A stretch of 32,151 nt of DNA, taken from contig JAITHM010000014.1 of NCBI GenBank assembly GCA_031279965.1, forward strand, positions 1 to 32,151, in the 5' to 3' direction. Source of the DNA: Spirochaetaceae bacterium (GTDB taxonomy: Bacteria > Spirochaetota > Spirochaetia > Treponematales > Breznakiellaceae). The notes under the pieces were generated by a model. That model was not told the DNA's origin. It made no database searches and was given only the letters and a program-made list of their open reading frames with translations. This document shows, one piece after another, positions 8,867 to 32,151 of the stretch. The position numbers and the translations under genes were made by a program. Position 1 is the first letter of the stretch; each line of letters opens with the position of its first letter.

Positions 8867-8878
8867 GAGGAGAAATAG

Positions 8879-9418
8879 ATGGCTATCGTAGCAAAGAAAA
8901 TACAGGATGTAAAAACAGCATCGATTAACGAGCTTAAAGAGGCGTTCAATGGTGCAGAGGATTTTATTTTTACTGATTACCGGGGGCTTACCGTTGAGCA
9001 GATTACTGGATTGCGCAAAAACCTTCGGGCAAAGGCGGCATCATATAAAGTTGTAAAAAACAACTTTGCCCGCATTGCTTTTGAACAGCTTTCCCTGCCC
9101 GATGTGTCGGCGTATCTAACGGGACCTACGGCTATAGCACTTGTTACCCAGGACTCAAACGAAATCGCCAAAATATTGATTGACGCGGCGAAAGAGACGC
9201 CGGTGCTCAAAGTAAAAGGCGCTATCGTAAGCGGTTCAGTGTATAACGCTCAGCAGATCGAGGCGTTTTCAAAGCTTCCTGGCCGGCTGGAACTTATCTC
9301 TATGCTTATGTCGGTTATGCAGGGGCCCGCACGAAATCTTGCCGGCTGCCTGAACGATGTGCCCGCACGGCTTGTGCGTACGGTCAAGGCTATTGCTGAC
9401 AAAAAAGGCGCTGTGTAA
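8879..9418 (+). CDS. rplJ: 50S ribosomal protein L10
   Basis: Contains FIFTDYRGLTVEQITGLRKNLR, typical of L10. The RBS TAGGAGGAG sits 12 nt after the rplA stop. Confidence 0.95.
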   Translation: MAIVAKKIQDVKTASINELKEAFNGAEDFIFTDYRGLTVEQITGLRKNLRAKAASYKVVKNNFARIAFEQLSLPDVSAYLTGPTAIALVTQDSNEIAKILIDAAKETPVLKVKGAIVSGSVYNAQQIEAFSKLPGRLELISMLMSVMQGPARNLAGCLNDVPARLVRTVKAIADKKGAV

Positions 9419-9480
9419 AATGTGGAAACAATCCGTCAGGCTTCGTGCTGCTGTCCTGTCGGGTTTAGGGCGTATGCCCC

Positions 9481-9515
9481 GCGTATCCTTATGGATACGC
9501 ATATTTTAATTTTTT
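9481..9515 (+). terminator. Strong hairpin plus T-rich tail between rplJ and rplL (attenuator, processing or stabilising element)
   Basis: GCGTATCC-ttat-GGATACGC is a perfect 8-bp stem with a 4-nt loop (9481-9500). It is followed by ATATTTTAATTTTTT, immediately before the rplL RBS. Confidence 0.4.
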
Positions 9516-9527
9516 AAGGAGAATAAT

Positions 9528-9920
9528 ATGGCAGCAACAAAAGAAGAAATTCTGGAAGCGATTGCTTCAATGACTGTGCTTGAAGTTTCCGAGCTTGTCA
9601 AAATGATGGAAGAGAAGTTTGGCGTTTCGGCGGCAGCTCCGGTGGCCGTTGCGGCGGTGGCAGGCGCGGCTCCAGCGGCGGGTGCGGCGGCAGGCGGCGA
9701 AGAAAAGACTGAGTTCAACGTTATACTCAAAGCGTTTGACGAGTCGAAAAAGATTGCCGTTATCAAAGAAGTGCGGCAGGCAACGGGTCTTGGGCTTAAA
9801 GAGGCCAAGGATCTTGTTGAAGGCGCTCCCAAGCCCCTCAAAGAGAATGTGCCCAAGGAAGAAGCCGACAAGATCAAGAAAGCGGTGGAAGCCGCCGGTG
9901 GTACTGTCGAGGTTCAGTAA
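9528..9920 (+). CDS. rplL: 50S ribosomal protein L7/L12
   Basis: An Ala-rich hinge ([23 protein letters not shown]) is followed by the C-terminal domain [28 protein letters not shown]. Confidence 0.97.
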
Positions 9921-9972
9921 ACTTTAAGGCAACGCTGATTAATTCATTCGCGGCAATCTTGCCTCGTCTTAC

Positions 9973-10000
9973 GGGGCTGTTGCTTTTCGGTAACAGCCCC
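9973..10000 (+). terminator. Possible terminator hairpin after rplL (no clear U-tract)
   Basis: GGGGCTGTT (9973-9981) pairs with AACAGCCCC (9992-10000) across a 10-nt loop, 53 nt after the rplL stop. No T-run follows. Confidence 0.3.
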
Positions 10001-10121
10001 ATTGCGGCGCTCTGCGTGATCAAAATAAATTCCAATTATCTCATGTCCACGGCGGATGGTTCACGCCGCCCTTCGCGTTCAAATTGTGAATCGCTAAGTA
10101 GGCTAAGTATGGGCAGTTACC

Positions 10122-10150
10122 TTGACAGGGTGCAGTAGCTGGGTTAAATT
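10122..10150 (+). promoter_or_regulatory. Candidate sigma70-type promoter for the phoH operon
   Basis: TTGACA (10122-10127), a 17-nt spacer, then TAAATT (10145-10150). The TTGACA coincides with the TTG used as the start by the ORF track, so the real phoH start is probably downstream. Confidence 0.45.
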
Positions 10151-10166
10151 TACGGTAGAGGTATTC

Positions 10167-11114
10167 TTGGACGACAGTGTAACTATTGTTTTAGAGACCC
10201 GCGACATTGTTTCCGGTGTATGCGGGGCAAATGACGGCAACTTAAAAGCCCTTTCGTTAAGTTTGGGCGGCAGGGTTGCCGTGAGAGGAAACGAAGTACG
10301 CGTTGAAGGGTTGGACAAAAATGGCGTGGAAAAATTTAAGACGGTGATGAATGACCTTATCACTGCCGTCCGTGAAGGTGAAAATCCCTCTCCTGAATAT
10401 GTACGCGCTCTTGCCGGCACGACTAATGAACAGGTGAATCCTCTTCGGTTCCGCGATGCACTTATCACAATTCCCCAAGGATTCGTAAAAATATTCCCTA
10501 AAAGCAGCAATCAAACTGAATATATCCGCGCTCTCCGCAGTCATGATATATGCTTTGCCGTGGGGCCTGCCGGTACAGGCAAGACTTTTTTGGCAATTGC
10601 CATTGCGCTGTCGCTGGTTCTTGCCAAAAAAATTCGTAAACTTGTACTGACGCGCCCTGTTGTCGAATCGGGCGAAAGTCTTGGTTATCTTCCTGGCGAC
10701 CTTGAACAAAAAATCAACCCCTATCTTCGTCCGCTCTACGACGCGATGGAAGCTCTTGTTCCGTATGAAGCAGTACGCCGGCTCGAAGATTCAAGAATGA
10801 TTGAAATTGCTCCACTTGCGTATATGCGCGGCCGTAGTTTTAACGATGCGTTTATTATTCTTGACGAAGCGCAAAACACCACAAAAGAACAAATGAAAAT
10901 GTTTTTAACGCGGTTAGGGCAGGGCGCGCGCGCGGTAATTACCGGTGATGTTACGCAGATTGATTTGCCCAAAAAAGTTGAATCGGGGCTTCTTAATGCT
11001 GTTTCAGTTCTCAAGGATGTCGAGGGAGTAAATATTTCGTATCTCCATACACAGGATGTGGTACGAAATACGCTTGTTAAGCGTATTATCGAAGCGTATG
11101 ACAGAAGTGGATAA
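10167..11114 (+). CDS. phoH: PhoH-like ATPase
   Basis: Walker A GPAGTGKTFLA is present, along with ILDEAQNTT and VITGDVTQIDLP. I prefer the in-frame TTG 10167, preceded by GAGG at 10158-10161. The ORF-track start at 10122 remains possible. Confidence 0.85.
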   Translation: MDDSVTIVLETRDIVSGVCGANDGNLKALSLSLGGRVAVRGNEVRVEGLDKNGVEKFKTVMNDLITAVREGENPSPEYVRALAGTTNEQVNPLRFRDALITIPQGFVKIFPKSSNQTEYIRALRSHDICFAVGPAGTGKTFLAIAIALSLVLAKKIRKLVLTRPVVESGESLGYLPGDLEQKINPYLRPLYDAMEALVPYEAVRRLEDSRMIEIAPLAYMRGRSFNDAFIILDEAQNTTKEQMKMFLTRLGQGARAVITGDVTQIDLPKKVESGLLNAVSVLKDVEGVNISYLHTQDVVRNTLVKRIIEAYDRSG

Positions 11115-11129
11115 CCCGGAGAAATTGTC

Positions 11130-12605
11130 ATGAAAAAAAAACATACTGCTGCAGACAGTGAGCAGCCATCATTTTTACGGCGCTGCATATTGCAGCGTGC
11201 TGAATTATTGCAAAACCCGCAAAAAGTTATAATAGGATTTTTTACATTCTTTGTTGTTGTAGTCCCGCAGGTAATATTGCAGCATGAATGGCCTTTTTCT
11301 GTCTTGCTTGGTATGATAATGCTCGACATCTTGTTCTTTTATCTTTTTTTCTTTTGTTTGTGCGGTCATCGCTCGACAGGAACAAAATTAGGTTTAAGCC
11401 AGTTTTATTTGGTATCGGCACTTACTGCAATTTATTTTCTTGCGGCAAATCTTATTGATAACAATGCGTTTTACCAGGGAATAATGCCTATTTCCATTGC
11501 ACTGCCAACGGCGCTTATCATACTATTGGTAACAATTATGGTAAATGTTCGTCATGCACGGACAATGGGGCTGCTCTTGCCGCTGGGAGCGTTTCTTAAC
11601 GGCAGTTTTGATTTTTATTCTTTTATATTTGCGCTGATGTCAGGTATTGCAGCCTCGTTTGTTCTGCGGGGAGCAAAGCGGCGCATAGATATGGTAAATG
11701 CGGGCTGCATACTCGCTTTGGTACATGTTGTTACGGTGCTGGCTTTGTTGCTTTTCCAGAATCTGCCTCTTGCTGTGTATCCTGCGATAGTAGGCTTTGC
11801 CGCGTTAAACGGCATTGCATCAGGGATGCTTGTACTTGGCATTACCCCAGTGCTTGAACAGCTTATGCGTACGGCAACGGCGTTTCGTCTTATCGAGCTT
11901 CTTGATTTGGGAGCTCCGCTTATGCGGCTTCTTGCATCGAAAACCCCGGGCACTTACAGCCATTCGCTGGTTGTCGCCAATCTTGCCGAAGCCGCCTGTC
12001 AGGAAATTGGCGCACACTCATTATTAGGCCGTGTCGGCGCATACTATCATGATATTGGCAAGATTGATCAGCCGGATTACTTTGTCGAAAACCAGCGCGC
12101 CGGAAATAAACATGATGATATTAACCCCCGGCTTTCTGCGACGGTTATTCGCAGTCATGTTAAAGTTGGCATAGAAAAAGGTCGTGCGGCGGGACTTCCC
12201 AACGAAGTTATTGATATTATAGCAAGCCATCATGGTAATAGCCTTATTGCCTATTTCTATAACGAAGCGCTTAAAAAAGAAGAGAATGTCGATATGGAAG
12301 ATTTTTGCTATCCAGGACATCCGCCGCAGACAAAAGAAGCGGCCGTGGTGATGCTTGCTGATGTTACCGAAGCGGCCGTGCGAACGCTTGACAAACCGGG
12401 TTCAAGCCGCCTTGAAAAATTCATTAATGAGCTTATTACAAAAAAAGTTGACTCCGCACAGCTTTCTGAATCTGAACTTACCTTTCGTGAACTGGAAACG
12501 ATTAAAAAAGTTTTTGTTCGTGTGCTGGCAGGCTATTATCATACACGTATTGAATATCCCAACCAGCCTAAAGAGTCAAAAGAACCGGCGAAGGATGATG
12601 CCTGA
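11130..12605 (+). CDS. Membrane HD/HDIG phosphohydrolase (7TM-HD, PgpH-like family)
   Basis: About 7 hydrophobic helices are followed by an HD domain (HSLVVANLAEAA..., GAYYHDIGKI, ASHHG). It occupies the conserved position between phoH and ybeY. Confidence 0.85.
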   Translation: MKKKHTAADSEQPSFLRRCILQRAELLQNPQKVIIGFFTFFVVVVPQVILQHEWPFSVLLGMIMLDILFFYLFFFCLCGHRSTGTKLGLSQFYLVSALTAIYFLAANLIDNNAFYQGIMPISIALPTALIILLVTIMVNVRHARTMGLLLPLGAFLNGSFDFYSFIFALMSGIAASFVLRGAKRRIDMVNAGCILALVHVVTVLALLLFQNLPLAVYPAIVGFAALNGIASGMLVLGITPVLEQLMRTATAFRLIELLDLGAPLMRLLASKTPGTYSHSLVVANLAEAACQEIGAHSLLGRVGAYYHDIGKIDQPDYFVENQRAGNKHDDINPRLSATVIRSHVKVGIEKGRAAGLPNEVIDIIASHHGNSLIAYFYNEALKKEENVDMEDFCYPGHPPQTKEAAVVMLADVTEAAVRTLDKPGSSRLEKFINELITKKVDSAQLSESELTFRELETIKKVFVRVLAGYYHTRIEYPNQPKESKEPAKDDA

Positions 12606-13081
12606 TGAATAAGATTGACATATCCGCAGAAGAAGTTCCTTTGCCTGCCTGGACAGATGACGCGAAATCTTTTATCGAAAAAACGTTACAACTGCTTAAT
12701 CACAATAATTGGGATCTCTCTGTGCTCTTTTGCAGCAATTCGTTCATACAGGTGCTTAACGCACGCTATCGTGGATTTGATATGCCAACAGACGTTCTTT
12801 CGTTTAGTTTGGGTGAGTGGAACTGTTCCGAAAATGAAAAGCGTTTTCTTGCAGGTGATATTGTTATTTCGCTTCAAACACTTGCCGAAAATGCCCGTGA
12901 ATTTAATGTAGGTGAAGACGAAGAACTGCGGCGGCTTTTAGTGCATGGCATTCTTCATCTTGATGGACGTGTTCATGATGTACATGAACTTAACGAGGCC
13001 GCACTTCAAAATGAACCCATGCTTGTACTTCAAGAATCAATACTCGTGCAATTAAAAAATGAAAGGATACTATGCCCATAA
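12605..13081 (+). CDS. ybeY: rRNA maturation endoribonuclease YbeY
   Basis: Contains the metal-binding motif LLVHGILHLDG and TDVLSF. The length is 158 aa. The start overlaps the upstream stop (TGATG). Confidence 0.9.
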   Translation: MNKIDISAEEVPLPAWTDDAKSFIEKTLQLLNHNNWDLSVLFCSNSFIQVLNARYRGFDMPTDVLSFSLGEWNCSENEKRFLAGDIVISLQTLAENAREFNVGEDEELRRLLVHGILHLDGRVHDVHELNEAALQNEPMLVLQESILVQLKNERILCP

Positions 13082-13102
13082 TGGGCGCATAAGGATGGTA
13101 GT

Positions 13103-13891
13103 ATGGTGTTTGAAATAATAAAAAACATATTTAAAGGAAAAGAATCTGCGCTTGCAGGATATGATACGCTTGAATCAGACCAACAGGAAATGATACGCGG
13201 CGTTGTTGAATTTGGCGAGACAACCGTAAAAGAAATTATGGTGCCCCGCATTGATGCTGAATTTATTCAGCTTGATACTCCCCGGGATGAAATGCTGAAA
13301 GTTGTTGCCGAAAGCGAACATTCACGATTCCCTGTTTATAAAGAAACAATTGATAATATTATCGGTGTTGTCTATATCAAGGATATATTAAAAAAACTTA
13401 TACGCAATGAAGATTTCAAACTTGAAGACATTATTCATAAAGCATTTTTTGTACCTGAATCAAAACATATTGATGATCTTCTGCATGAATTTCAGGGGAG
13501 ACATGTTCACCTTGCTATTGTTGTAGATGAATACGGCGGTGTATCAGGCATTGTCTCATTGGAAGATATTATCGAAGAAATTATTGGCGATATTCAAGAT
13601 GAATTTGACAATGAAAAAGAAGCAATAGTTAAATTAACTGATGATTCATGGATTTGTGATGCACGGCTTAATCTAAGCGACCTTACTGAAAAGCTTGGTG
13701 TTGAACTTCCTCAGGATGACTTTGATACGTTGGGCGGATTTGTCTTTAATCTTTTGGGGCATATCCCTGTTAAGTATGAAAAAGTGTGTTATAATGATCT
13801 TGATTTTATTGTGCAGGAAATCGAAGGGCGTAAAATACTTTCAGTTAAGATTCTGCTTAATCGTAAGGATGCGGATGTTGTCATGTCTTGA
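13103..13891 (+). CDS. CorC/TlyC-family protein (CBS pair plus CorC_HlyC transporter-associated domain)
   Basis: VKEIMVPRIDAEF and HLAIVVDEYGGVSGIVSLEDIIEEIIGDIQDEFD are present, followed by the C-terminal CorC_HlyC-like segment. There is no DUF21 membrane domain. Confidence 0.85.
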   Translation: MVFEIIKNIFKGKESALAGYDTLESDQQEMIRGVVEFGETTVKEIMVPRIDAEFIQLDTPRDEMLKVVAESEHSRFPVYKETIDNIIGVVYIKDILKKLIRNEDFKLEDIIHKAFFVPESKHIDDLLHEFQGRHVHLAIVVDEYGGVSGIVSLEDIIEEIIGDIQDEFDNEKEAIVKLTDDSWICDARLNLSDLTEKLGVELPQDDFDTLGGFVFNLLGHIPVKYEKVCYNDLDFIVQEIEGRKILSVKILLNRKDADVVMS

Positions 13892-22957: not shown

Positions 22958-25900
22958 ATGAAGCGACGAATGATGATAGGCGTAGGAATACTTGCGGTGT
23001 TGATAGGTGCCGGTGTTTTTTCATGCCATGGGGCTTCTTTTTACGACGGGTGGGGTGATAAAATTGATGATCAGACGAAAAGTCCTTTTCCTGGCGAAGT
23101 TCCCTTGCTGGAGAGTCTGACTATTGTTCCGCAGAAGGGCGGCGATCCTCTGCCGCTTACGCCGGTATTTGTACCGCAGACGAACATGTATCAGTCGTAT
23201 TCGTCGCTGGCCGAGATGGGCTTATACGAAATAAAAGCTACGGTTAAAGAGGGGTCAAACTATAAGATATCGTACGTGAACGGGCCGTTATTTACGCCGC
23301 TTACGGTAACGTATGTTATTGTTACGGTAACGAACGATGACATTAAAAACAGCTATGTTGTCGCGTTTAATGACGACAATATGCCCTATGCCAAGCTTAA
23401 ATTGCTTGGTTTTTCCGAAGGCGAGATAACCACTCCGGCGGAAGGTTTTAACTCATCAATTAAAGATTATAATGTAACGGTTCCCTATGGTACCAAGTCG
23501 GTTATGGCGGCGGGGGAGCCTGAGCAGGAGAGCGGGCAGGTTATTTACAGCGAAGCGCCGCTGGATTTAACAAAACGGCTGACGATGGTGGTGCAGGTTG
23601 TCGCGCCTGGCTACAATGTTGGTTCGTATACGGTAACATTTTTAGAGGCAACTCCCCAGGCTTCGTTTTTAGAGTATTTGGAGCTGTCTGTTGGGTCGTT
23701 GGAGCCTGCGTTTAGCCGCGACAAGACGGAAGGGTATACGCTTACGCTTCCGGCGTCCACGCCGCTTACGCTTAAAGGGCACATAGCCCCGGGCGGCGAA
23801 GTGACCTACAGCCAGGGGATAGCGAAGCCGAACAATGCACAGTATATACCGAATCCCAAGGGCGGATCGGATTTATTAACGATAACAGCGCATAACGGTG
23901 TAGGGTATGCGCCCAAGGAATATGTATTCGAGCTGGTTTTGGATTCAACCACGCCGTATGCGTCGTTGTCGTCGTTGTCGGCAACGATAGATCCGCCGTC
24001 AGACTATTTAACGTGGTACCGGCGGGACGGCGGTTCGCGGGTGCCGGAGGTAAGCGGCTCCGGCGTGTTTAGTCCCGATGTGCTTAACTACGAACTGTAT
24101 TTAGAGAGGGGTCAGCCGAGCGCGGGAACCTTAACCTTTGCTGCGGCTGCCGGTGCGGGAATAGCCAATGCAACGATCACCTATGAATATTTGGGGCCTG
24201 CCAACGAGGATAGCGAGGCGGTATTGAACTTTCGTTTTGACGAGCGGATACCAATGCGTGTGCGGATAAGTGCGCAGGGGTACCTGCCGGTTACCTATCA
24301 TGTTGTTATAAACAGCGCGGCCGACTATAAGCCGGTTGCCTTGTTAAAAGGGTTAACGCTGGTTGGCGCGAATCTGGATCCTGCGTGGGATCCGAACGAT
24401 CCTGCACAGGATTATTATCAGGCGGTAGGGCTGCGGGGGAACGCGCTTATTGTGCAGGGCGTTCCAGAGAAAGATTTTTTCCATGTTACCTACAAAGCGG
24501 CAAAGTCGATAGCGGCGCTGGAAGACAGTGTTGCAATAACGGTACGGGTTGATGGCGGGGAAACCTACCAGCCTATGGAGTATGTAATCCTGGTTGCCGT
24601 GCGGCAGAGGATGAAGCCGCTGCTTTCGCTGTTAAAGGCAGGCGAGAAAGATATAGAGCTTATAGAGGGGCAGTTTGCCTACACGGTAGCGATAGAAGAT
24701 GTGGCGCAGGTAAAAATACCGTATGAGTGGGAGTATGCCACGCCGCTGGATATTGATACGGCTGTCCATTCGTTAAACGGCCTAACGTGGACGGCGCCGA
24801 ACGACGCGCCGCCCCAGGCGGAGATTACGGTGGCGGAAGGGAATACGGCGTTGATGCAGATAAAAATTACCTGCAAAGACAAGACCGAGGCGATCTACCA
24901 TATCTACATGACGCGGGACGAAAATAACGACGAGACCCTCGTTCTTAAGGATATAGAGAGGAATGGTAAAGGCCTAGAAGAATTTAGTCAGAATAAAAGA
25001 AACTATACGGTCTATGTAGACAGTCTTAGTCAGCAAACAATTGAGGGAATACTGTCTGATGAGATGATGAGTAGCCGCCCGGGAATAAAGGTAACATACC
25101 GGTTGAGTGGAGAAATTCTCTGGAACCCTGAACCTGCGAAGTTTAGACTGCAAGCAGAGGCACCAAGAAACACGCAAACAGTAAACATACGTGTTTCGCT
25201 TGGCGGTGCAAAGAATGTCTACTCGGTAACGTACATCTGGGCGGAAAAACTGTTTAAGATAACTGAGGTGACGTATACAGCGAGTATGGGGAAGGTTGAG
25301 ATAGAACCTCTCTCTGCAACAACGACGGGGATACCGGGAGGGGCGCCTTTTATGGTAAGGCAGGTGCCGAATAATGGTTCTAAGATAGGAATAGGGCAAA
25401 CTCCCCAAGATGGCGGACTGCCTGTGATTAGGAGTAGTGATAACGGCGTTGAACTGGATACTGCTATTGACGGATCTGTGCCGGCATCTCCTGTGCCTGC
25501 AATATTTTACGTAAAAGAAATGCCCCCGAAGGATGTAAAATTAGAGTTGTTTTTTGTCCAGGTAGATAGTACTGATAATAAACTTGATATGCTTGATATT
25601 ATAGATAAAGATGGGAATAAATCATGTATGACAACAGCGTTTGTTCGTACAAATAGTAGTGTAAAGGCATTCTTGACGAACAATCAAGGGGTAACGGTCA
25701 AAGGGAAAGCTCCTTTAAGCAGCAATATTTATTACAAGATAATTAAAGTTGGTGCGGCAGCAACTCCGCTGAAGGCCAGTCTTACTGCGACAAGAGAGTT
25801 CAACTTTGATATCGATATGCCAATCCCAATGAGTGTGGTGGTTATATTGGAAGTGCATCCAAATAACGCAGGTTTAGGGGTTACGACCTATATACTTGTT

Positions 25901-26605
25901 ATAAAAAAAATCGATGTGGTGACTGAATTTGGCTTTTCTGCATCAGAAGAATTCTATTCAGTAGGAGCAAGCGGCTGGTTTAAGATAGAAGTTTGGGGAG
26001 CACAGGGCGGGGAGGCTACAAATGTATGGAATGAGTTTCAGAGTGATAAACCTGGCGCAAAAGGTGGTTATTCTTATGGTGATATTTATATTTCTGAAGG
26101 CACAGAACTGTATGTTCGTGTAGGCGGGAGGGGAGAATCGGCGAAAGAGGCTTATAGTTCTTATTCGGATGCTGTCGGCGGCTGGAATGGCGGCGGAGAT
26201 GGAGATGTTGGTAGTTTAGAGGGCGGTGGTGGCGGTGGCGGTAGGTCTGAGGTGCTCATGGGCTCGAATAAACGGCGTATTATTGTAGCTGGCGGTGGCT
26301 CAGGCGGCGTACAGAGTGGTAAGTATGGTGCTGGCGGCGGTGGTAATGAGGGCGAGAGAGAGGGCGTGGCTGGAAGTGACGGGAGCGGTTCAGTTAATGT
26401 TGATGGTAATGGGTCTAAGGGAACTGGTGGTTCAACGTATGGCGGCGGCGGCGGCGGCGGCGGATACAAAGGTGGGAGTAAAAACAGTGGTGGTTCCGCT
26501 TTTATCGAGACGAACAATGGGTTTTTCAGTAACATTGGCGGAAGCCGCGGCACGAGAGAAGGCGATGGTTATGTAAAAATTACCTGGCTTGGTATACAGA
26601 GATAA
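22958..26605 (+). CDS. Giant predicted surface lipoprotein: about 8 cadherin-like beta-sandwich repeats plus a C-terminal ALK/LTK-type glycine-rich domain
   Basis: The signal peptide ends in a lipobox-like GAGVFS-C. Repeated modules of about 90 aa resemble LEYLELSVGSLEPAFSRDKTEGYTLTLP...YVFELV. The C-terminal roughly 230 aa (nt 25910-26605) read FGFSASEEFYSVGASGWFKIEVWGAQGG...GAKGGYSYGDIYISEGTELYVRVGGRG...GGWNGGGDG...GGGGGGGRSEV...RIIVAGGGSGG...GGGGGGGYKGG. Confidence 0.9.
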   Translation: MKRRMMIGVGILAVLIGAGVFSCHGASFYDGWGDKIDDQTKSPFPGEVPLLESLTIVPQKGGDPLPLTPVFVPQTNMYQSYSSLAEMGLYEIKATVKEGSNYKISYVNGPLFTPLTVTYVIVTVTNDDIKNSYVVAFNDDNMPYAKLKLLGFSEGEITTPAEGFNSSIKDYNVTVPYGTKSVMAAGEPEQESGQVIYSEAPLDLTKRLTMVVQVVAPGYNVGSYTVTFLEATPQASFLEYLELSVGSLEPAFSRDKTEGYTLTLPASTPLTLKGHIAPGGEVTYSQGIAKPNNAQYIPNPKGGSDLLTITAHNGVGYAPKEYVFELVLDSTTPYASLSSLSATIDPPSDYLTWYRRDGGSRVPEVSGSGVFSPDVLNYELYLERGQPSAGTLTFAAAAGAGIANATITYEYLGPANEDSEAVLNFRFDERIPMRVRISAQGYLPVTYHVVINSAADYKPVALLKGLTLVGANLDPAWDPNDPAQDYYQAVGLRGNALIVQGVPEKDFFHVTYKAAKSIAALEDSVAITVRVDGGETYQPMEYVILVAVRQRMKPLLSLLKAGEKDIELIEGQFAYTVAIEDVAQVKIPYEWEYATPLDIDTAVHSLNGLTWTAPNDAPPQAEITVAEGNTALMQIKITCKDKTEAIYHIYMTRDENNDETLVLKDIERNGKGLEEFSQNKRNYTVYVDSLSQQTIEGILSDEMMSSRPGIKVTYRLSGEILWNPEPAKFRLQAEAPRNTQTVNIRVSLGGAKNVYSVTYIWAEKLFKITEVTYTASMGKVEIEPLSATTTGIPGGAPFMVRQVPNNGSKIGIGQTPQDGGLPVIRSSDNGVELDTAIDGSVPASPVPAIFYVKEMPPKDVKLELFFVQVDSTDNKLDMLDIIDKDGNKSCMTTAFVRTNSSVKAFLTNNQGVTVKGKAPLSSNIYYKIIKVGAAATPLKASLTATREFNFDIDMPIPMSVVVILEVHPNNAGLGVTTYILVIKKIDVVTEFGFSASEEFYSVGASGWFKIEVWGAQGGEATNVWNEFQSDKPGAKGGYSYGDIYISEGTELYVRVGGRGESAKEAYSSYSDAVGGWNGGGDGDVGSLEGGGGGGGRSEVLMGSNKRRIIVAGGGSGGVQSGKYGAGGGGNEGEREGVAGSDGSGSVNVDGNGSKGTGGSTYGGGGGGGGYKGGSKNSGGSAFIETNNGFFSNIGGSRGTREGDGYVKITWLGIQR

Positions 26606-26628: not shown

Positions 26629-29600
26629 ATGATGAAAAAGAACGGCAAAAAAATTAACAAGGGTTATGTGGCATGTTTGTGCGGAGCACTGGTGCTTATG
26701 GCGGTAGTGGGCGCCTGTCATGCGGCGGGCTATTTTGATGGCTACGGCGACAATACGGGCGGTAACGGAGGGGCAGACTCCACCACGGTTCCCTACCTCG
26801 ACAGCCTGGAATTGCAGGCAACAGGGGGCGGGATTATCGCGTTTGATAAACCGTTTGATCCGGGTACCAATATGTATTCTGTTAGATATGCAAGCGTCCC
26901 CAACCCGTCATATACGGTCGTTGCGACATCGTTAAATTTTAATGTAACGTATGTAACAGGAACTGTGCTTTCTCCGGCAACGGATACATACGCCATTGTG
27001 TCGGTGGAAAACGGCAAGCTTAAAAACGACTATATTATTTCGGTAAACAAGGATGGGCTTCCGGAAGCTAAACTAAAAAGCCTTACTTTTTCAGACGGTT
27101 ATTTTGTTTCTCCAAGCTGGAGCTTTGACCCGGATATAACTGGCTATGAAATTGAAGTGCCGGAAGGCATTGATACCATACTTGCTTCCGGTGTGCCGGA
27201 GGTTGCTGCGGGCAAGGTAGTCTACAGCGAAGCTCCTGTTTCTGTAGGCAGTGGCAAGCCGCTTATAATTCAGGTTGCCGCTCCCGGACATAATATTGGC
27301 GTGTATACGATATTGGTACAGCGTGCGAACCCGATGCCGTCGTTCCTCGATGGTCTTGAACTTTCGGCAGGTTCGCTGTCGCCGAAATTTTCCAGAAATA
27401 TTACAAATTATACAATAACGTTACATTCATCTACGCCGCTTACCGTGCTGGGGCGTGTTGCCTATGGAACGGTAAGTTATAGCCAGGGTACGGCGCTTGC
27501 AAACGGCGGCCAGCAGATTAATACGCCGTCGGGAGTAGTAACGCTTACGGCAAATTATGGAATTGCCAATATCAAAGTGGTTTCAGGCGATAAGGAGCGC
27601 TATGTCCGGCGTGCCCACACGCCCAAAGACTATCTATTCACTATTGTAATAGATGATACTGCCAAGTATACCAATTTGGACGAAATTAAGGTAAACGGTG
27701 TAAGCGGTGCGCGCGCGCAGGATGAGGCTTGGATACTGTATCAGCGTAACGGAGGGAACCGTACCGGAAAAGAAGGCTTTGAGGCAGATGTGCTTACCTA
27801 CGAGCTGTATTTTACATCGTATTATCCGGGGGAAAAGGCCGCAGATATAACAGCGTATGCCTTGTCTGTAGAAGGTTTTCTAAGTTCTGCAAATAATTTG
27901 CGCTGGAAACTTGAATATAATAAGGGCAATCCGATGTATAATCCTACGGTTGCTGCGCTGTTCCAGACTGACGACGACAAGACAAGGTATTCCAACTTTA
28001 TTGATCCGCAAATACCCATGCAGATTACTGTTAAGGAAAGAGATGGTATAAACGAAGGAGCTCTGCCTCGTGTGTACCATATATTTATATCGTATAACAA
28101 TGCCAACTGGCCCTATGCGGTGCTTACCGATATTTTGGTAAACGGCGAGGGCACAGGTGCCAATACGCTGCAAAATACGGATAGCCCGGGGCAAGGCTTT
28201 CTGTCGCTTAATTTTAACTATTCGCTTGGCGTCCGGCGAGGAGCCAACCTTATCCTTAAAGGCATTCCCGAAAAGGAAAGCGTTATTGTCGACGAGCAAG
28301 TTACTGATAGTGATGGAAACACAACTGGAGAGATGGTTACCCATGCGGTACGCGGTTACGATATCCGCTACGATCCGGAAAACAGTTTTGCTAATGTTCA
28401 GAACGGAGGCACGGTAAAAATATGGGTAAACGGAGGCATTGGCTATAGAGAAGCTGAATACACAATAGAAATTGAAGTTTTTGAACCGATGAATCCAGAA
28501 CTGCAAACGATTAGCGTCCGGGGCAATGAATTGGGAGTAATCACTAAAAACTACCGGTATGTCGAGGTTCTGGAGTACGAAGGCGAAGAATTTATGCAGC
28601 TTCCGTTTGAATGGGCGCCGGTTGTTCCCGAAGGCATTAAAACGATCAGATATGCCTACGAGGTGGTAGCCGGAAGCACCCATTGGATTGATGACCCGGA
28701 GCACGATGGTTTTGACGCGGGATCAAGCTTTGTTGCGGAAAAGGGAAAGGCGTATATAGTCTATATAGAAGTAACCTGCAACGACGGGGAACAGGTTACC
28801 TACACGGTCCAGCTTAAACGCCAAGGACAAACGGACAAGTCGATAGTATTAACAATGATTCAGTTGAACAATGTAGATATTACGGGATTTAATAAAGATA
28901 TTCAAAGCTACGTGATAAACATCACCAATTCAAATGATAACACGCTTAAAGGAATTATTGATCCTAATGTAGGCGTGGTTCTGTATTCGTATGACGAGGT
29001 TAACTGGCAGAACACTGATCCTATAGAATCTTTGCTCCCCGGGGAAACAAGAACGATTATAATCCGCGCGGATGCTTCGGGAAAATACAATGATTATACG
29101 GTAACGCTTTCTCGTTCAACGGCCTTGTATAAGGTTGATGCGGTTTCAGTATCAAAAGATGATGCCGGTAATGAGCTGGGAACTTATCAGCTCAGCCCCA
29201 GTACATCCATTACTACTGGTGTTGTTGCCGGTACTTTGATGTATCTCGTAGTAACACCTGTCAATAATCAATATAAAATTGCTACAAAACCTGTGGTACA
29301 GATAACCGGCACCTCGCAGAGAGAGTCAGTTGTTGGGGTGGTTCCTGGTGGTTCTAACCAAAGTAGTTTTAGCTTTTCTATGCCGGCGGGCGATGTAACT
29401 ATTACACTTTATTTTGAAAATATTCTAAGTCAGAGCAATCAATTGGTTGTTTTGACTGCCAGTGATGGAAGTAAAATGCCGATTATGGAAGTTTTTGATG
29501 GCGCTAAAAGCGACAAAACATGGTATGTAGGAACGAAAAATACAAAAGTAGATTTTTCTATTACGGGCCCTGTGGGAGCAGAAATTTCATACAAAGAGTT

Positions 29601-30624
29601 GTTCTCTGATTATACGGCAGGCCTTTCTGAAAATCCAATACCTCTTAATAAGGACGACGAGTTTAGTCTGGCATCGCTTTATGCTGGGTTAATGAGGCCT
29701 ATTCTCATAACTGTAAGACCGGATAATACGGATCTTGAGATCCGTGAGTATCTGGTGATTGTAATGCGGCTGCCAAACAATGGCGTGTCGAATTTTGCTT
29801 TTTCAGGGAGTACGGTGAACTGGGTTCCTCCAATTCCTGGCTGGTATAAGGTTGAATTATGGGGTGGAGCGGGAGGACAAGCTTGGGCTGATACAGATTT
29901 GACGGCCAATCACAACCGATGGAATAATGATACACAAGGCGGGGGAGGGTACACCTGTGTTGAAGGTGCTTTTAAAGAAAATTATTTCTTCAAGATCAAA
30001 GTAGGGGGACGTGGTCAAAAGGCTGCGGGGAGAAAAGAAGATGATAAGACGTTTAGTGTCACCTTCCCGGATGGTGGAAAAGGGGGTAAGAACAGGCACT
30101 TCGTTGATCAGTATCAAGGTGCTTGCGGTGGCGGGGGTTCCTTTTTATTCTTTGGCTACAATGGGGGAAATGATTTTGAAGCCGTTGCTGTTGCCGGCGG
30201 TGGTGGCGGCGGGTCGTCTAAAGGAAAGGATGGGCCTACAAATGGCGGTGCTGGAGGTGGTGGAAATCCCTGGCGAAGTGCTGGTGAATATGCTTTGAAT
30301 AGACAACAAGCGGATCAGAAGGATGATACTTCAGGTTTTACTCAAACAACTCATACCGGTGATGCTAACAAAACCGCTAATTTTGTTGGAAGGGACGGGC
30401 ATGAGAAAGGTCAAGGCGGCGGCGGCGGCGGATACTATGTTGGAAGTAATTGGGGGCAAGGCGGCCAGGGCTGGGCAAGAATGCCTGCGGATCTTGGCGG
30501 CAGATCGCAATATGATGGTCCTGTTTTTACAAAGGTCAGCGGCAAAAGAAACCAGAAGCTAAAAGCAAGTGGTGAAGTAAGAATTACCTGGATGGGCGCG
30601 GTAGACCCGGCGGCTACTCCGTAA
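26629..30624 (+). CDS. Paralogous giant predicted surface lipoprotein with the same architecture
   Basis: The signal peptide carries LMAVVGA-C. The protein is collinear with the upstream gene (for example SFLDGLELSAGSLSPKFSRNITNYTITL). The C-terminal roughly 285 aa (nt 29771-30624) read FAFSGSTVNWVPPIPGWYKVELWGGAGG...GGGGYTCVEGAFKENYFFKIKVGGRG...GACGGGGSFLFF...AVAVAGGGGGGS...GQGGGGGGYYVG. The gene starts 23 nt after gene 1 and has its own RBS. Confidence 0.9.
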   Translation: MMKKNGKKINKGYVACLCGALVLMAVVGACHAAGYFDGYGDNTGGNGGADSTTVPYLDSLELQATGGGIIAFDKPFDPGTNMYSVRYASVPNPSYTVVATSLNFNVTYVTGTVLSPATDTYAIVSVENGKLKNDYIISVNKDGLPEAKLKSLTFSDGYFVSPSWSFDPDITGYEIEVPEGIDTILASGVPEVAAGKVVYSEAPVSVGSGKPLIIQVAAPGHNIGVYTILVQRANPMPSFLDGLELSAGSLSPKFSRNITNYTITLHSSTPLTVLGRVAYGTVSYSQGTALANGGQQINTPSGVVTLTANYGIANIKVVSGDKERYVRRAHTPKDYLFTIVIDDTAKYTNLDEIKVNGVSGARAQDEAWILYQRNGGNRTGKEGFEADVLTYELYFTSYYPGEKAADITAYALSVEGFLSSANNLRWKLEYNKGNPMYNPTVAALFQTDDDKTRYSNFIDPQIPMQITVKERDGINEGALPRVYHIFISYNNANWPYAVLTDILVNGEGTGANTLQNTDSPGQGFLSLNFNYSLGVRRGANLILKGIPEKESVIVDEQVTDSDGNTTGEMVTHAVRGYDIRYDPENSFANVQNGGTVKIWVNGGIGYREAEYTIEIEVFEPMNPELQTISVRGNELGVITKNYRYVEVLEYEGEEFMQLPFEWAPVVPEGIKTIRYAYEVVAGSTHWIDDPEHDGFDAGSSFVAEKGKAYIVYIEVTCNDGEQVTYTVQLKRQGQTDKSIVLTMIQLNNVDITGFNKDIQSYVINITNSNDNTLKGIIDPNVGVVLYSYDEVNWQNTDPIESLLPGETRTIIIRADASGKYNDYTVTLSRSTALYKVDAVSVSKDDAGNELGTYQLSPSTSITTGVVAGTLMYLVVTPVNNQYKIATKPVVQITGTSQRESVVGVVPGGSNQSSFSFSMPAGDVTITLYFENILSQSNQLVVLTASDGSKMPIMEVFDGAKSDKTWYVGTKNTKVDFSITGPVGAEISYKELFSDYTAGLSENPIPLNKDDEFSLASLYAGLMRPILITVRPDNTDLEIREYLVIVMRLPNNGVSNFAFSGSTVNWVPPIPGWYKVELWGGAGGQAWADTDLTANHNRWNNDTQGGGGYTCVEGAFKENYFFKIKVGGRGQKAAGRKEDDKTFSVTFPDGGKGGKNRHFVDQYQGACGGGGSFLFFGYNGGNDFEAVAVAGGGGGGSSKGKDGPTNGGAGGGGNPWRSAGEYALNRQQADQKDDTSGFTQTTHTGDANKTANFVGRDGHEKGQGGGGGGYYVGSNWGQGGQGWARMPADLGGRSQYDGPVFTKVSGKRNQKLKASGEVRITWMGAVDPAATP

Positions 30625-30647
30625 GCATCTCTGCGCCAAACACAAAA

Positions 30648-30676
30648 CCGCAAAGCCTCCGCTTTGCGGTTTTTTT
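30648..30676 (+). terminator. Rho-independent terminator of the giant-gene operon
   Basis: CCGCAAAGC-ctcc-GCTTTGCGG is a perfect 9-bp stem. A T7 run follows. The structure begins 24 nt after the stop codon. Confidence 0.85.
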
Positions 30677-30690
30677 ATGCGCCCGCCCGC

Positions 30691-30892
30691 CTTCGCTTGT
30701 GGGGCGTTCAATGTTTCTGTCCCAGCAGCCGCTCCTGCGCCCCCCACCGCCCACACTTCACCGGAGGAACGCGCTCAACGTTTCGCACGCTTTCGCTTGG
30801 TGGGGCGTTCGCCTTTTCTGTCCCAGTAGCCGCTTCTGCGCCCCACACCGTGCTAACTTCCCCGGAGGGACGCGCTCAACGTTTCGCGCGCC
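30691..30892 (+). repeat. Two tandem GC-rich units of about 100 bp (short hairpin module plus linker with GCGCTCAACGTTTCGC)
   Basis: Unit 1 (30691-30790) and unit 2 (30791-30892) align end to end. The shared pattern is TTCGCTTG(G)TGGGGCGTTC....TTTCTGTCCCAG.AGCCGCT.CTGCGCCCC...ACTTC.CCGGAGG.ACGCGCTCAACGTTTCGC.CGC. Confidence 0.85.
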
Positions 30893-30907
30893 AGTGCTTG
30901 GTGGGGT

Positions 30908-31160
30908 GGGGGCGCGTGGAAATTCGTGCGGGCAAAACGCTTGGCGGCTAGAGCACAAGCCACGCCAAAGCGTGCGTCAGCAAAGCCCCCGGCCAACTAG
31001 TTTTGTACGCGCGAATTTCCACGCGCCCCGTTTCGGGAAAGCCGTGCGGGCAAAACGTTTGGCGGCTAGAGCACAAGCCACGCCAAAGCGTGCGTCCGCA
31101 AAGTCCCGGCCAACTAGTTTTGTACGCGCGAATTTCCACGCGCCCCGTTTCGGGAAAGCC
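30908..31160 (+). repeat. Palindrome-bounded unit of about 122 bp (30908-31029) and its 118-bp tandem duplication (units 30926-31043 and 31044-31160)
   Basis: The arms GGGGGCGCGTGGAAATTCG (30908-30926) and CGAATTTCCACGCGCCCC (31012-31029) are perfect inverted repeats. The segment GTGCGGGCAAAACG..TTGGCGGCTAGAGCACAAGCCACGCCAAAGCGTGCGTC.GCAAAG..CCCGGCCAACTAGTTTTGTACGCGCGAATTTCCACGCGCCCCGTTTCGGGAAAGCC occurs twice in tandem. Confidence 0.85.
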
Positions 31161-31235
31161 TTTTGTAATTGCAAAGCAAATCGCTTGACTTATTACCGGC
31201 ATTAGACGATACTTAAAACGTCAACTGAATCAAGA

Positions 31236-31847
31236 TCAGCTGACTCCGCCCCCTGTGAGTGGAATAGAACTGTTGGGGTTAGCAGAAGTGGCTGCTGCGT
31301 TAGTGGCGTTTTGTTCGCTATCACTGGAGGGATGGCCGTCTCCCCCTGATTGGTCTATAATTTCAATCTCTGAGATGTCATAAATTGCATTGTTTTCTAA
31401 TATTTTAATAACGTCTTTTACAAAAGTTTTTTTCCTTTTTTTAAAGAATGTAACTGAAAGATACCTTCGCTTTTTTTTGCTTATGTGTTCAATATAAATA
31501 TATGTATGACCTTCTTCTGTGTGTTTACCATAAAGCACACTGTATGTGCTAAAATGTTTTATTTTTCGTATCTCAAATGACGGCGTTTGTACTATGTCTG
31601 GTATACTCATAAAGTCTTTTTCTGTTATGGCAATTTGTCCTTGTTGTTTTTCTGCCACAAAATTACCGTGTCTGTCATAAATATGTTTAATTCTCTCTAC
31701 GTTTGTTGTGTGGGTATATCCATTAGAGTCAAGTAGAATAGTAAAACTATTTTTTGGAATGTCATTTATGCCTTTCTTGTGATTAACTGCTTGTGCCCAT
31801 GCGTTTTGAATAAATCTTTTATATTCTCGTCTTTGTTCTTCACTCAT
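31236..31847 (-). CDS. AT-rich orphan protein (203 aa), possible nuclease/toxin-like domain, cassette-borne
   Basis: This is the only long ORF in the AT-rich segment. It has a clean ATG start, no signal peptide, a basic patch KKKRRYLSVTFFKKRKK, and a low-complexity Ser/Asn/Gly tail. I cannot assign a family with confidence. Confidence 0.65.
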   Translation of the reverse strand: MSEEQRREYKRFIQNAWAQAVNHKKGINDIPKNSFTILLDSNGYTHTTNVERIKHIYDRHGNFVAEKQQGQIAITEKDFMSIPDIVQTPSFEIRKIKHFSTYSVLYGKHTEEGHTYIYIEHISKKKRRYLSVTFFKKRKKTFVKDVIKILENNAIYDISEIEIIDQSGGDGHPSSDSEQNATNAAATSANPNSSIPLTGGGVS

Positions 31848-31892
31848 ACTTCAATTATCGGTGCGGTGACAGCTTGCGGTAAGTGCTTACGA

Positions 31893-32075
31893 CCCCGCCG
31901 CCCACACTTCGCCGGAGGAACGCGCTCAACGTTTCGCGCGCCATTTCTTGGTGGGGGCGCGTGGAAATTCGCGGGGGCAAAACGTTTGGCGGCTAGAGTT
32001 CCGGCCACGCCAAAGCGTGCGTCAGCAAAGTCCCCGGCCAACTAGTTTTGTACGCGCGAATTTCCACGCGCCCCC
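31893..32075 (+). repeat. Third, direct-orientation copy of the linker plus palindromic unit
   Basis: It is near-identical and collinear with 30845-31029. It contains CCCACACTTCGCCGGAGGAACGCGCTCAACGTTTCGCGCGCC, then the 21-bp arms GGGGGCGCGTGGAAATTCGCG (31953-31973) and CGCGAATTTCCACGCGCCCCC (32055-32075). Confidence 0.85.
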
Positions 32076-32151
32076 TCACGGAAAAGCAACACGCTTGCCG
32101 GTAAGGGCTTTGGCGGTGTAGTGTAAGGCATGGGCAGAAACAGCAGCTACA

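What the first reader, a model, noticed from the sequence alone, without database searches (positions are those of the whole stretch)
30680..32075. GC-rich structured repeat array bracketing an AT-rich orphan gene: integron-cassette-like (CALIN-like) or a new cassette or recombination-site family
Seen in the sequence, directly after the operon terminator the DNA becomes non-coding, GC-rich and modular:
1. Two tandem units of about 100 bp (30691-30790 and 30791-30892). Each has a short hairpin module (GGGGCG, about 32 nt, CGCCCC) plus a linker containing GCGCTCAACGTTTCGC.
2. A unit of about 122 bp bounded by 18-21-bp perfect inverted arms, GGGG(G)CGCGTGGAAATTCG and CGAATTTCCACGCGCCCC(C). Inside it, CAAAAC/GTTTTG and TTGGC/GCCAA pairings are separated by small internal loops, and there is a variable centre.
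3. The linker-plus-palindrome block 30845-31029 recurs, near-identical and in the same orientation, at 31893-32075.

Between the two direct copies lies AT-rich DNA with a single orphan minus-strand ORF.

The linker heptamer GCTCAAC (30773, 30874, 31924) fits the integron inverted-core consensus RYYYAAC. Its complement GTTGAGC fits the core site GTTRRRY on the ORF's own strand, 77 nt upstream of the ORF start.

A promoterless-looking ORF flanked by direct copies of long imperfect palindromes is the architecture of integron gene cassettes. Chromosomal integrons are documented in Treponema, for example T. denticola.

Several points count against a canonical attC. The outer arms are 21 bp and perfect, the units are composite, and no intI lies in the window. 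The region could therefore be a novel cassette system, a REP/BIME-like family or a MITE. The array may continue past the window end.
Basis: partly seen in the sequence, partly recalled or inferred. Interest (0 to 1): 0.7.

Follow-up and report, generated by a model that had tools for sequence, protein, structure and literature searches.

The report
Lineage-specific GC-rich hairpin repeat cluster
The end of this contig carries a cluster of GC-rich, hairpin-forming intergenic repeats (closest in design to REPIN/BIME elements) with a horizontally acquired nuclease-like gene sitting among them; it fails the tests I could run for integron attC sites, so it is a fairly ordinary kind of bacterial repeat, though a family not seen elsewhere.

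Summary
The repeats are real. All lie in 30684-32151, at the end of a 32151-bp contig.

Only the 122-nt unit (H2) folds better than chance. The short "hairpin modules", the linker, and the RYYYAAC heptamer do not exceed chance.

The AT-rich ORF is not an orphan. It is a PBECR3 (BECR-fold nuclease) protein. Its two homologues sit in unrelated neighbourhoods without these repeats. All three share a CCGATAAT element 6 nt before the ATG, which suggests the gene has its own promoter.

The attC tests I could run failed:
- A covariance model built from published T. denticola attC sites gave no hit.
- No complementary R''/R' pair was found.
- The only AAC/GTT helix lies under a 22-bp perfect outer stem.
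- There is no recombinase in the window.

The repeat was not found in any collection searched, so its genome-wide copy number is unknown.

Best reading: a lineage-specific REPIN/BIME-like (or MITE-like) repeat cluster amplified locally, with an independently acquired gene lying inside it. A novel cassette system is not excluded, at about 0.1.

Interest is low to moderate.

The parts
30644..30680 (+). Intrinsic-terminator-like hairpin (13-bp perfect stem, 4-nt loop, T7 tail) ending the upstream + strand operon. This is context, not part of the repeat.
   Evidence: I11; sequence
30684..30906 (+). Two tandem 101-bp units. Each is a short module (GGGGCG...CGCCCC; H1a 30701-30743, H1b 30802-30844) plus a ~55-nt linker containing GCGCTCAACGTTTCGC. 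The H1 ends resemble the H2 ends, so H1 looks like an internally replaced or deleted H2 derivative.
   Evidence: period 101, 2.2 copies, 82%; alignment; folds no better than shuffles
30909..31029 (+). H2-A, a 121-nt imperfect palindrome. It has a 22-bp outer stem (18 bp perfect arms GGGGCGCGTGGAAATTCG), then a 7-bp helix GCAAAAC/GTTTTGT, a 2x3 internal loop, a 5-bp helix TTGGC/GCCAA, and a variable centre with a conserved CACGC-CAAA-GCGTG tip.
31030..31043 (+). 14-nt trailer GTTTCGGGAAAGCC following H2-A. It resembles a degenerate left arm.
31044..31160 (+). H2-B, a tandem copy of the H2 core plus right arm plus trailer (117-bp period). It lacks the left arm and is 113/117 identical to H2-A. 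It does not fold significantly by itself.
   Evidence: (D1)
31161..31892 (-). AT-rich (36% GC) self-contained gene segment lying between repeat units.
31236..31847 (-). ORF of 203 aa with a PBECR3 (phage-Barnase-EndoU-ColicinE5/D-RelE-like nuclease 3) domain.
   Evidence: E 1.2e-10, 41.8 bits against a cutoff of 30; homologues at 59% and 41% identity
31854..31863 (-). CACCGATAAT, a -10-like element 6 nt upstream of the ATG. CCGATAAT is invariant in all three homologues despite unrelated upstream DNA. Inferred to be the gene's own promoter, giving a leaderless or very short leader.
   Evidence: alignment; not called by the consensus scan, so this is an inference
31220..31244 (-). Terminator-like hairpin overlapping the ORF stop codon.
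31893..31952 (+). Linker copy c, including GCGCTCAACGTTTCGC at 31922-31937. It is preceded by a degenerate H1-like remnant at about 31869-31892.
31953..32075 (+). H2-C, the third copy of the long palindrome. It is 88% identical to A and B, and its differences are a mosaic relative to A and B.
32076..32151 (+). Trailer-like CTCACGGAAAAGCA, then an H1-like start (ACACGCTTGCCGGTAAGGGCTT, 32089-32110) that matches 31869-31889. The array probably continues beyond the contig end.
   Evidence: 19/22 match, 0 of 500 shuffles reach the score; contig length 32151 equals the window length

Best explanation
The region is a cluster of a lineage-specific, GC-rich, non-coding palindromic repeat family. It belongs to the general REPIN/BIME kind: two inverted REP-like arms separated by a spacer that itself maintains a hairpin, assembled with conserved linkers into a mosaic.

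Shown:
- The unit anatomy and the strong hairpin potential of H2 on either strand.
- The extragenic position between convergent transcription units, directly after a terminator.
- Local amplification by tandem duplication (101-bp and 117-bp periods).
- Mosaic differences among copies.

Inferred:
- The units spread and are homogenised as folded single strands or by recombination and slippage.
- Any genome-wide spread depends on a trans-acting enzyme encoded elsewhere (RAYT/HUH-type or a transposase).
- The units' effect on the cell is incidental, for example hairpins in 3' UTRs or insulation between convergent genes.

The PBECR3 gene is a separate, horizontally acquired, self-contained module with its own -10-like element and terminator-like hairpin. 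It lies at a junction between repeat units. The repeats are not its vehicle.
For: - H2 is a near-perfect hairpin on both strands (z -5.6 to -7.8). Its 18-nt arms are identical in all five instances.
- Read directly from the sequence, each arm contains a small CGCG-N8-CGCG palindrome.
- GC is 61-64% against a 46.6% host background.
- The position is extragenic, directly after a terminator and between convergent coding regions.
- Modular order is H1-L-H1-L-H2-t-H2-t-[gene]-H1'-L-H2-t-H1'....
- Tandem copies are 97% and 82% identical; the distant copy is 88-90%.
- The contig ends inside the array, as expected where an assembler meets repeats.
- All six reading frames of the repeat lack protein relatives. 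There is no Rfam family beyond generic hairpin noise.
- The PBECR3 homologues P0002 and P0003 lie in different neighbourhoods without H2-like flanks. They share only the gene and a few flanking bases, including CCGATAAT.
- REPIN and BIME properties used for comparison come from PMC3337134 and PMC3184786.
Against: - No copy was found in the other 30.6 kb of the contig, which holds some 25 intergenic regions.
- The exact 18/20-mers occur in no other genome, metagenome or viral contig beyond chance single hits. A dispersed high-copy distribution, which is a defining REP/REPIN property, is therefore unshown. It may even be false if the source genome is in that collection with only this window masked.
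- No RAYT or transposase is known for it.
- The composite unit (~240 bp) is larger than typical REPINs.
- Copies share flanks beyond the palindrome, so they look like segmental or tandem duplicates rather than independent insertions.
- The gene sits exactly at a unit junction, which a cassette model would also predict.
Confidence: 0.55

Rival explanations
1. A novel, non-IntI cassette or recombination-site system. The L+H2 units would be single-strand-folding recombination sites, and segments such as the PBECR3 gene would be captured between them by an unknown recombinase encoded beyond the contig end.
For: - The gene segment lies between same-orientation copies of L+H2 and at a junction between units.
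- Its composition differs sharply from both the array and the host.
- The inner H2 topology (7-bp AAC/GTT helix, small internal loop, 5-bp helix, variable tip) loosely recalls R box, UCS, L box and VTS.
- The array probably continues past the contig end.
- Toxin-like genes are common cassette cargo (PMC4909258).
Against: - Only one of the three or four unit junctions holds a gene.
- H2-A and H2-B form a plain tandem duplication with nothing between them.
- The gene's homologues move without these repeats.
- The gene seems to have its own promoter.
- No recombinase lies in the window.
- There is no second example anywhere.
Confidence: 0.12
2. A MITE of the Correia/ERIC type. H2 would be a ~122-bp non-autonomous transposon with 18-30-bp terminal inverted repeats, mobilised by a DDE transposase of a parent IS elsewhere in the genome. 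H1 would be an internal-deletion derivative.
For: - The size and perfect terminal inverted repeats match the class (104-157 bp for Correia, ~127 bp for ERIC; PMC3184786).
- It forms a long hairpin. The Rfam near-misses are hairpin miRNA-precursor models only.
- H1 keeps the H2 termini GGGGCG...CGCCCC.
Against: - No target-site duplication is visible: the flanks are GGTG|...|GTTT and GGT|...|TCAC.
- Conserved sequence extends outside the inverted repeats on both sides, as linker and trailer.
- The copies are clustered, in one orientation and partly tandem.
- No IS with matching ends occurs in the window or in any collection.
Confidence: 0.15
3. A canonical chromosomal integron fragment or CALIN. 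H2 units would be attC sites recombined by an IntI encoded beyond the contig end.
For: - The length of 121-123 nt is within the attC range of 57-141 bp (PMC4909258).
- Long attC sites of 115-132 bp are reported in T. brennaborense and T. succinifaciens (PMC3607928).
- The sites are palindromic and lie in direct orientation around an ORF.
Against: - The T. denticola attC covariance model gives no hit in the region on either strand at E<=10 with filters off.
- There is no consensus R''/R' pair.
- GCAAAAC/GTTTTGT carries 4 mismatches to RYYYAAC/GTTRRRY.
- The internal loop is 2x3 nt instead of a ~5-6-nt UCS, and there are no single extrahelical bases (attC features as defined in PMC5027507).
- 22 bp of conserved perfect pairing lies outside the would-be crossover point.
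- The ORF has its own promoter-like element.
- No intI lies in the 30.6 kb examined.
Confidence: 0.04
4. Tandem genes for a structured non-coding RNA of about 120-240 nt that acts on or with the neighbouring nuclease gene, for example as an RNA antitoxin.
For: - RNA folds are very stable (-72 to -77 kcal/mol).
- The + strand gains two G-U pairs over the - strand.
- The repeats adjoin a BECR-fold nuclease gene, which recalls type III toxin-antitoxin layouts.
Against: - No promoter-like site precedes any unit.
- There is no Rfam family.
- The better-folding strand is antisense to the gene.
- The gene's homologues lack the repeats.
- With only three copies, no covariation can be assessed.
Confidence: 0.06

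Closest known systems
REPINs (REP doublets forming hairpins) and BIME clusters of REP elements (Pseudomonas, Enterobacteria)
   Same: - Two inverted short GC-rich arms separated by a spacer (34-110 bp in P. fluorescens SBW25) that is itself organised as a hairpin.
- Extragenic, GC-rich, and often between convergent genes.
- Occur in ordered clusters with linker motifs (PMC3337134; PMC3184786).
   Different: - Hundreds of dispersed copies and a cognate RAYT define the family, and neither could be shown here.
- The arms here are only weakly palindromic themselves (CGCG-N8-CGCG).
- All units are in one orientation.
- The composite unit is larger, at about 240 bp.
Correia (CREE) / ERIC / RUP-type bacterial MITEs
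   Same: Length of 100-160 bp, terminal inverted repeats of about 20-30 bp, long stem-loops at the RNA level, and location at the 3' ends of genes (PMC3184786).
   Different: There are no target-site duplications. Flanks are conserved outside the inverted repeats. The arrangement is tandem and clustered, and no parent IS is known.
Integron attC sites, including the long (115-132 bp) Treponema attC sites
   Same: Imperfect palindrome of similar length that folds as a single strand. An internal AAC/GTT helix is followed by a small loop and a second helix. Same-orientation copies flank an ORF.
   Different: - No RYYYAAC/GTTRRRY consensus.
- No UCS of the usual size and no extrahelical bases.
- A 22-bp conserved outer stem lies beyond the would-be crossover.
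- No hit to a covariance model built from published T. denticola attC sites.
- No IntI, and the ORF is not promoterless.
BOX elements of Streptococcus pneumoniae (boxA-boxB(n)-boxC)
   Same: A modular intergenic repeat built from a few module types, with a variable number of tandem internal modules and strong predicted secondary structure (mentioned in PMC3184786; module details are from general knowledge).
   Different: The sequence is unrelated, the host is AT-rich, and BOX elements are dispersed in more than 100 copies. Dispersal is not shown here.

Membership tests
Integron attC site / CALIN | R'' and R' boxes: RYYYAAC and complementary GTTRRRY at the outer ends of the site (PMC5027507) | tested here: not met
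   A Python scan found no pair with >=6/7 pairing and <=2 consensus mismatches in 30600-32151 on either strand. The only AAC/GTT helix (GCAAAAC/GTTTTGT) has 4 mismatches and is internal. RYYYAAC occurs at chance frequency.
Integron attC site / CALIN | Unpaired central spacer, extrahelical bases in the L box, and a variable terminal structure | tested here: not met
   The fold shows a 2x3-nt internal loop, a 1x1 mismatch and a 4-nt bulge. It shows no ~5-6-nt UCS and no single extrahelical bases. A variable tip is present.
Integron attC site / CALIN | Length 57-141 bp and imperfect palindrome | tested here: met
   121-123 nt; z -7 to -7.8.
Integron attC site / CALIN | Recognised by an attC covariance model (at least 2 sites within 4 kb for CALIN) | tested here: not met
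   Model R1, built from five published T. denticola attC sites, gave no hit in the region at E<=10 with filters off. IntegronFinder's own model was not available, so this is a surrogate test.
Integron attC site / CALIN | IntI tyrosine recombinase nearby (complete integron); promoterless cassette ORF | tested here: inconclusive
   No recombinase was found among the window ORFs, but the contig ends 76 nt after the last unit. The ORF has a conserved -10-like CCGATAAT, which argues against its being promoterless.
REPIN / REP-BIME | Two REP-like sequences in inverted orientation, with a spacer that maintains a hairpin | tested here: met
   (I2, I3).
REPIN / REP-BIME | Each REP is itself a short imperfect palindrome | tested here: inconclusive
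   Only a 4-5-bp CGCG...CGCG stem with an 8-nt loop is seen in each arm (read).
REPIN / REP-BIME | Extragenic, GC-rich, and biased to the 3' ends of convergent genes | tested here: met
REPIN / REP-BIME | Tens to hundreds of dispersed copies per genome | not testable with these tools
   The source genome is not retrievable. There are no further copies in the 30.6 kb of contig, and no multi-hit contig in any collection.
REPIN / REP-BIME | Cognate RAYT (Y1/HUH transposase) flanked by the REPs | not testable with these tools
   None in the window. The rest of the genome is unavailable.
MITE (Correia/ERIC type) | Terminal inverted repeats around a short non-coding core | tested here: met
   18-30-nt arms.
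MITE (Correia/ERIC type) | Target-site duplications; copies with unrelated flanks | tested here: not met
   No direct repeat at the H2 ends. Linker and trailer are conserved outside the arms.
PBECR3 nuclease family (for the ORF) | Pfam PF18812 match above the gathering score | tested here: met
   41.8 bits against a cutoff of 30, E 1.2e-10, covering residues 39-140. The homologues also carry PF18812.

The most novel reading that the evidence does not exclude
The L+H2 units are folding recombination sites of a previously undescribed gene-capture system that is not IntI/attC. The system stockpiles self-contained accessory genes, here a BECR-fold nuclease, between units in an array that continues beyond the contig end. 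Its recombinase is encoded on the adjoining, unseen DNA.
Probability: 0.1. Interest if true: 0.75.

Novelty: new member of a known kind. Interest (0 to 1): 0.3.

Why it matters
If the main reading holds, this is one more species-specific palindromic repeat family. It is useful as a strain-typing or assembly-gap marker. It is also a small example of how such clusters become landing pads or neighbours for acquired genes. It would not change any concept.

It would matter much more if the full genome showed the units confined to one array with different genes between them. That would be an integron-like capture system with a different site architecture, in a lineage with no close sequenced relatives.

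The PBECR3 gene is a side point of interest. It is solitary, seems to be self-promoted and possibly leaderless, and appears in three unrelated contexts.

Tried and rejected
1. Exact-pattern scans gave only chance-level single hits. I scanned for the arm in genome contigs, metagenome contigs and viral contigs, and for the core and linker in viral contigs. Blast of the fetched loci confirmed that only the seed matched. By my calculation about 17 hits to an 18-mer are expected in 596 Gb, and 15 were seen.
2. Distant blastn of the array against plasmids and phages found nothing.
3. A six-frame translation of the array searched as protein against 5.8 billion proteins found nothing.
4. An exhaustive phmmer search with the 168-aa spurious ORF returned one weak hit, P0010. 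P0010 is itself a three-fold tandem repeat and looks like a translated REP-type array. I judged it not to be homologous at the DNA level (58% over 36 nt, by eye).
5. Synteny through neighbouring genes failed. The 1331-aa protein search returned only itself, because glycine-rich words swamped the candidate list. Exact-product look-ups for five window proteins found no other contig.
6. Rfam gave nothing at gathering threshold. At E<=10 it gave only plant miRNA-precursor hairpin models. These were rejected as generic hairpin matches.
7. There is no tRNA or tmRNA in the window that could serve as an integrase target.
8. A DGR TR/VR reading was rejected. Differences between the copies are not adenine-specific, and the repeats are non-coding.
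9. Retron, type III antitoxin, dif/Xer and telomere-resolution readings were considered and set aside on anatomy.
10. IntegronFinder's attC alignment is not held in the paper library.
11. PADLOC, PHROGs and PDB sequence searches with the ORF gave nothing useful.
12. The organism could not be identified (one search gives no names).
Full report
OBSERVATION

The window is a whole contig of 32151 bp. The window's own proteins are listed with a longest contig of 32151. The finding lies at its last 1.5 kb.

After the 1331-aa + strand gene (stop at 30624) comes a classical terminator-like hairpin with a T-run at 30644-30680 (I11). The DNA then turns GC-rich, at 61-64% against 46.6% for the rest of the contig.

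Tandem Repeats Finder reports a 101-bp period, 2.2 copies and 82% matches at 30684-30906. The 16-mer GCGCTCAACGTTTCGC occurs three times against 0.44 expected. The 18-mer arm GGGGCGCGTGGAAATTCG occurs five times against 0.04 expected, and all five lie between 30909 and 32074.

The long unit (H2) at 30909-31029, and again at 31953-32075, folds into a near-perfect hairpin:
- DNA: -48.2 and -47.7 kcal/mol, z -7.8 and -7.0.
- Minus strand: z -5.6 and -6.4.
- RNA: -72 to -77 kcal/mol.

The core observation is therefore real and far beyond chance.

CORRECTIONS TO THE OBSERVATION

1. The two direct copies of linker plus palindrome are 90% identical (157/174, with a 5-nt gap), not near-identical.
2. 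It is a 117-bp-period tandem duplicate of the H2 core, right arm and a 14-nt trailer (GTTTCGGGAAAGCC). It lacks the left arm and is 113/117 identical to the first copy.
3. The ~100-bp units and the linker do not fold better than shuffled sequence (z between +1.0 and -0.4). The "short hairpin module" is only a 6-9-bp closing stem. Alignment suggests that H1 shares the outermost ends of H2 (GCTTGGTGGGGCG...CTGCGCCCC) with a different interior.
4. RYYYAAC occurs 59 times in the window against 64 expected. The GCTCAAC match carries no information.
5. The last 76 nt contain a 22-nt motif (32089-32110) that matches 31869-31889 at 19/22. None of 500 shuffles reached that score. It resembles the start of an H1 module, so the array probably continues past the contig end.

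The resulting order is: H1-L-H1-L-H2-t-H2'-t-[gene]-H1'-L-H2-t-H1'...

THE GENE

The minus-strand ORF 31236-31847 (203 aa, 35% GC) is not an orphan. It matches Pfam PBECR3 above the gathering score (E 1.2e-10). It has two homologues among 5.8 billion proteins, at 59% and 41% identity, and both carry PF18812.

The contigs of those homologues (L019, L021) place the gene in different neighbourhoods. In L019 it lies between an ABC ATPase and an LptD/OstA-like gene. In L021 it lies between two unrelated ORFs. Neither contig has H2-like or linker-like flanks.

Alignment of the three loci shows that homology covers the coding region, about 20 nt upstream and a short 3' stretch. CCGATAAT is invariant 6 nt before the ATG. 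I infer a -10 element giving a leaderless or near-leaderless mRNA. The consensus scan did not call a full sigma-70 promoter there, so this remains an inference. A terminator-like hairpin overlaps the stop codon.

The gene therefore looks like a self-contained, horizontally moving single-gene module that does not need these repeats.

TESTS OF THE INTEGRON READING

Published T. denticola attC sites are canonical: GTCTAAC...GTTAGAT, 63-68 bp (Wu et al. 2013, PMC3607928, supplementary table). I built a covariance model from five of them. Searching the whole window with filters off gave no match in 30680-32151 at E<=10, and only noise elsewhere.

A direct scan for complementary R''/R' boxes found none in the region.

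The inner part of H2 loosely mimics an R box, spacer and L box. It has a 7-bp helix GCAAAAC/GTTTTGT, a 2x3 loop, and a 5-bp helix TTGGC/GCCAA. Three things count against the analogy:
- The boxes miss the consensus at four positions.
- The loop is shorter than a UCS, and there are no single extrahelical bases (features as defined in PMC5027507).
- This helix sits inside a 22-bp conserved, perfectly paired outer stem. In an attC, the DNA beyond the R' crossover belongs to the next cassette.

No recombinase or transposase domain occurs in any sizeable ORF of the window. The other side of the array is off the contig. IntegronFinder's own model could not be obtained, so the covariance-model test is a surrogate.

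SEARCH FOR OTHER COPIES

- Exact arm 18/20-mers gave only chance-level single hits in 596 Gb of species-representative genomes, in JGI metagenomes and in IMG/VR. Blast of the fetched loci showed only the seed matched.
- Core and linker motifs gave no viral hits.
- Distant blastn against plasmids and phages found nothing.
- A six-frame translation of the array has no protein relative.
- An exhaustive phmmer search of the 168-aa spurious ORF gave one weak hit that is itself a translated tandem repeat.
- Within the contig there are no further copies, even with sensitive blastn.

The host lineage is isolated. Its L11, L1 and L7/L12 proteins are singletons at 90% identity among 15 billion proteins. 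Comparative genomics was therefore impossible, and the genome-wide copy number is unknown.

INTERPRETATION

The anatomy best fits the REPIN/BIME kind of element. Two inverted GC-rich arms are separated by a spacer that preserves a hairpin. The element is extragenic, lies between convergent transcription units, and is assembled with conserved linkers into a mosaic. It has been amplified locally by tandem duplication, and its copies differ in a mosaic pattern that suggests recombination among them (comparison with PMC3337134, and PMC3184786).

A Correia/ERIC-like MITE is a close rival. Against it, there are no target-site duplications, and the conserved sequence extends beyond the inverted repeats.

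The defining population-level features could not be tested: many dispersed copies, and a RAYT or parent IS. I therefore claim that it works like a REPIN/BIME, not that it is a proven member.

The gene lies exactly at a junction between units and between same-orientation L+H2 copies. That keeps a novel cassette-type system alive at roughly 10%. Canonical integron membership is at a few percent.

VERDICT

This is a genuine, previously unseen repeat family of a familiar kind, with an interesting but probably incidental association with an acquired BECR-fold nuclease gene. Interest 0.3.

Noticed in passing
window 31854-31863 (-); L019 6230-6245; L021 1897-1911: All three PBECR3 homologues keep CCGATAAT 6-8 nt upstream of the ATG despite unrelated upstream DNA and no consistent Shine-Dalgarno sequence. 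This suggests a self-promoted, possibly leaderless single-gene module that appears in three different genomic contexts.
   Followed up: partly
L019 6196-6217 versus window linker (30755-30776, 31906-31927): TTGACCGGAGGATGGACGCGCT upstream of the L019 homologue resembles the window's linker TTCACCGGAGGAACGCGCT (1 of 200 shuffles reach the score, before correction for 8 tests). It is in the opposite orientation relative to the gene. The meaning is unclear and it may be chance.
   Followed up: partly
window 22958-26605 and 26629-30624 (+): Two adjacent large paralogous proteins (1215 and 1331 aa) carry cadherin-like beta-sandwich hits and a C-terminal ALK/LTK-type glycine-rich domain (PF12810). 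The word-indexed search returned no relatives for the second one, probably because Gly-rich words swamped the candidates.
   Followed up: partly
window 7764-13891 (+): The L11-L1-L10-L7/L12 ribosomal protein cluster is followed by PhoH, a 7TM-HD hydrolase, YbeY and a CorC/CBS protein rather than rpoB/rpoC. L11, L1 and L7/L12 are singletons at 90% identity in a 15-billion-protein collection, so the lineage has no close sequenced relative.
   Followed up: no
window 32151 (contig end): The window is a complete contig that stops 76 nt after the last long palindrome, inside what looks like the next repeat module. The assembly apparently broke in the repeat array.
   Followed up: partly
P0010: The only protein in 1.84 billion representatives with weak similarity to the spurious ORF across the array is itself a three-fold ~83-aa tandem repeat. 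Motifs such as VGASLLAMTAAH and CGSEPARDDGG look, from memory, like a translated Pseudomonas-type REP cluster. This illustrates that gene callers translate such arrays.
   Followed up: no
window 31161-31189: Between the trailer after H2-B and the AT-rich gene segment, GGGAAAGC-[CTTTTGTAATTGCAAAGC]-AAATCGCTTGAC resembles the uninterrupted GGAAAAGCAACACGCTTGCC after H2-C with an 18-nt insert. A short GCTTG-containing direct repeat may therefore flank the gene segment (also at 31872-31876). This was not statistically significant in blastn.
   Followed up: partly
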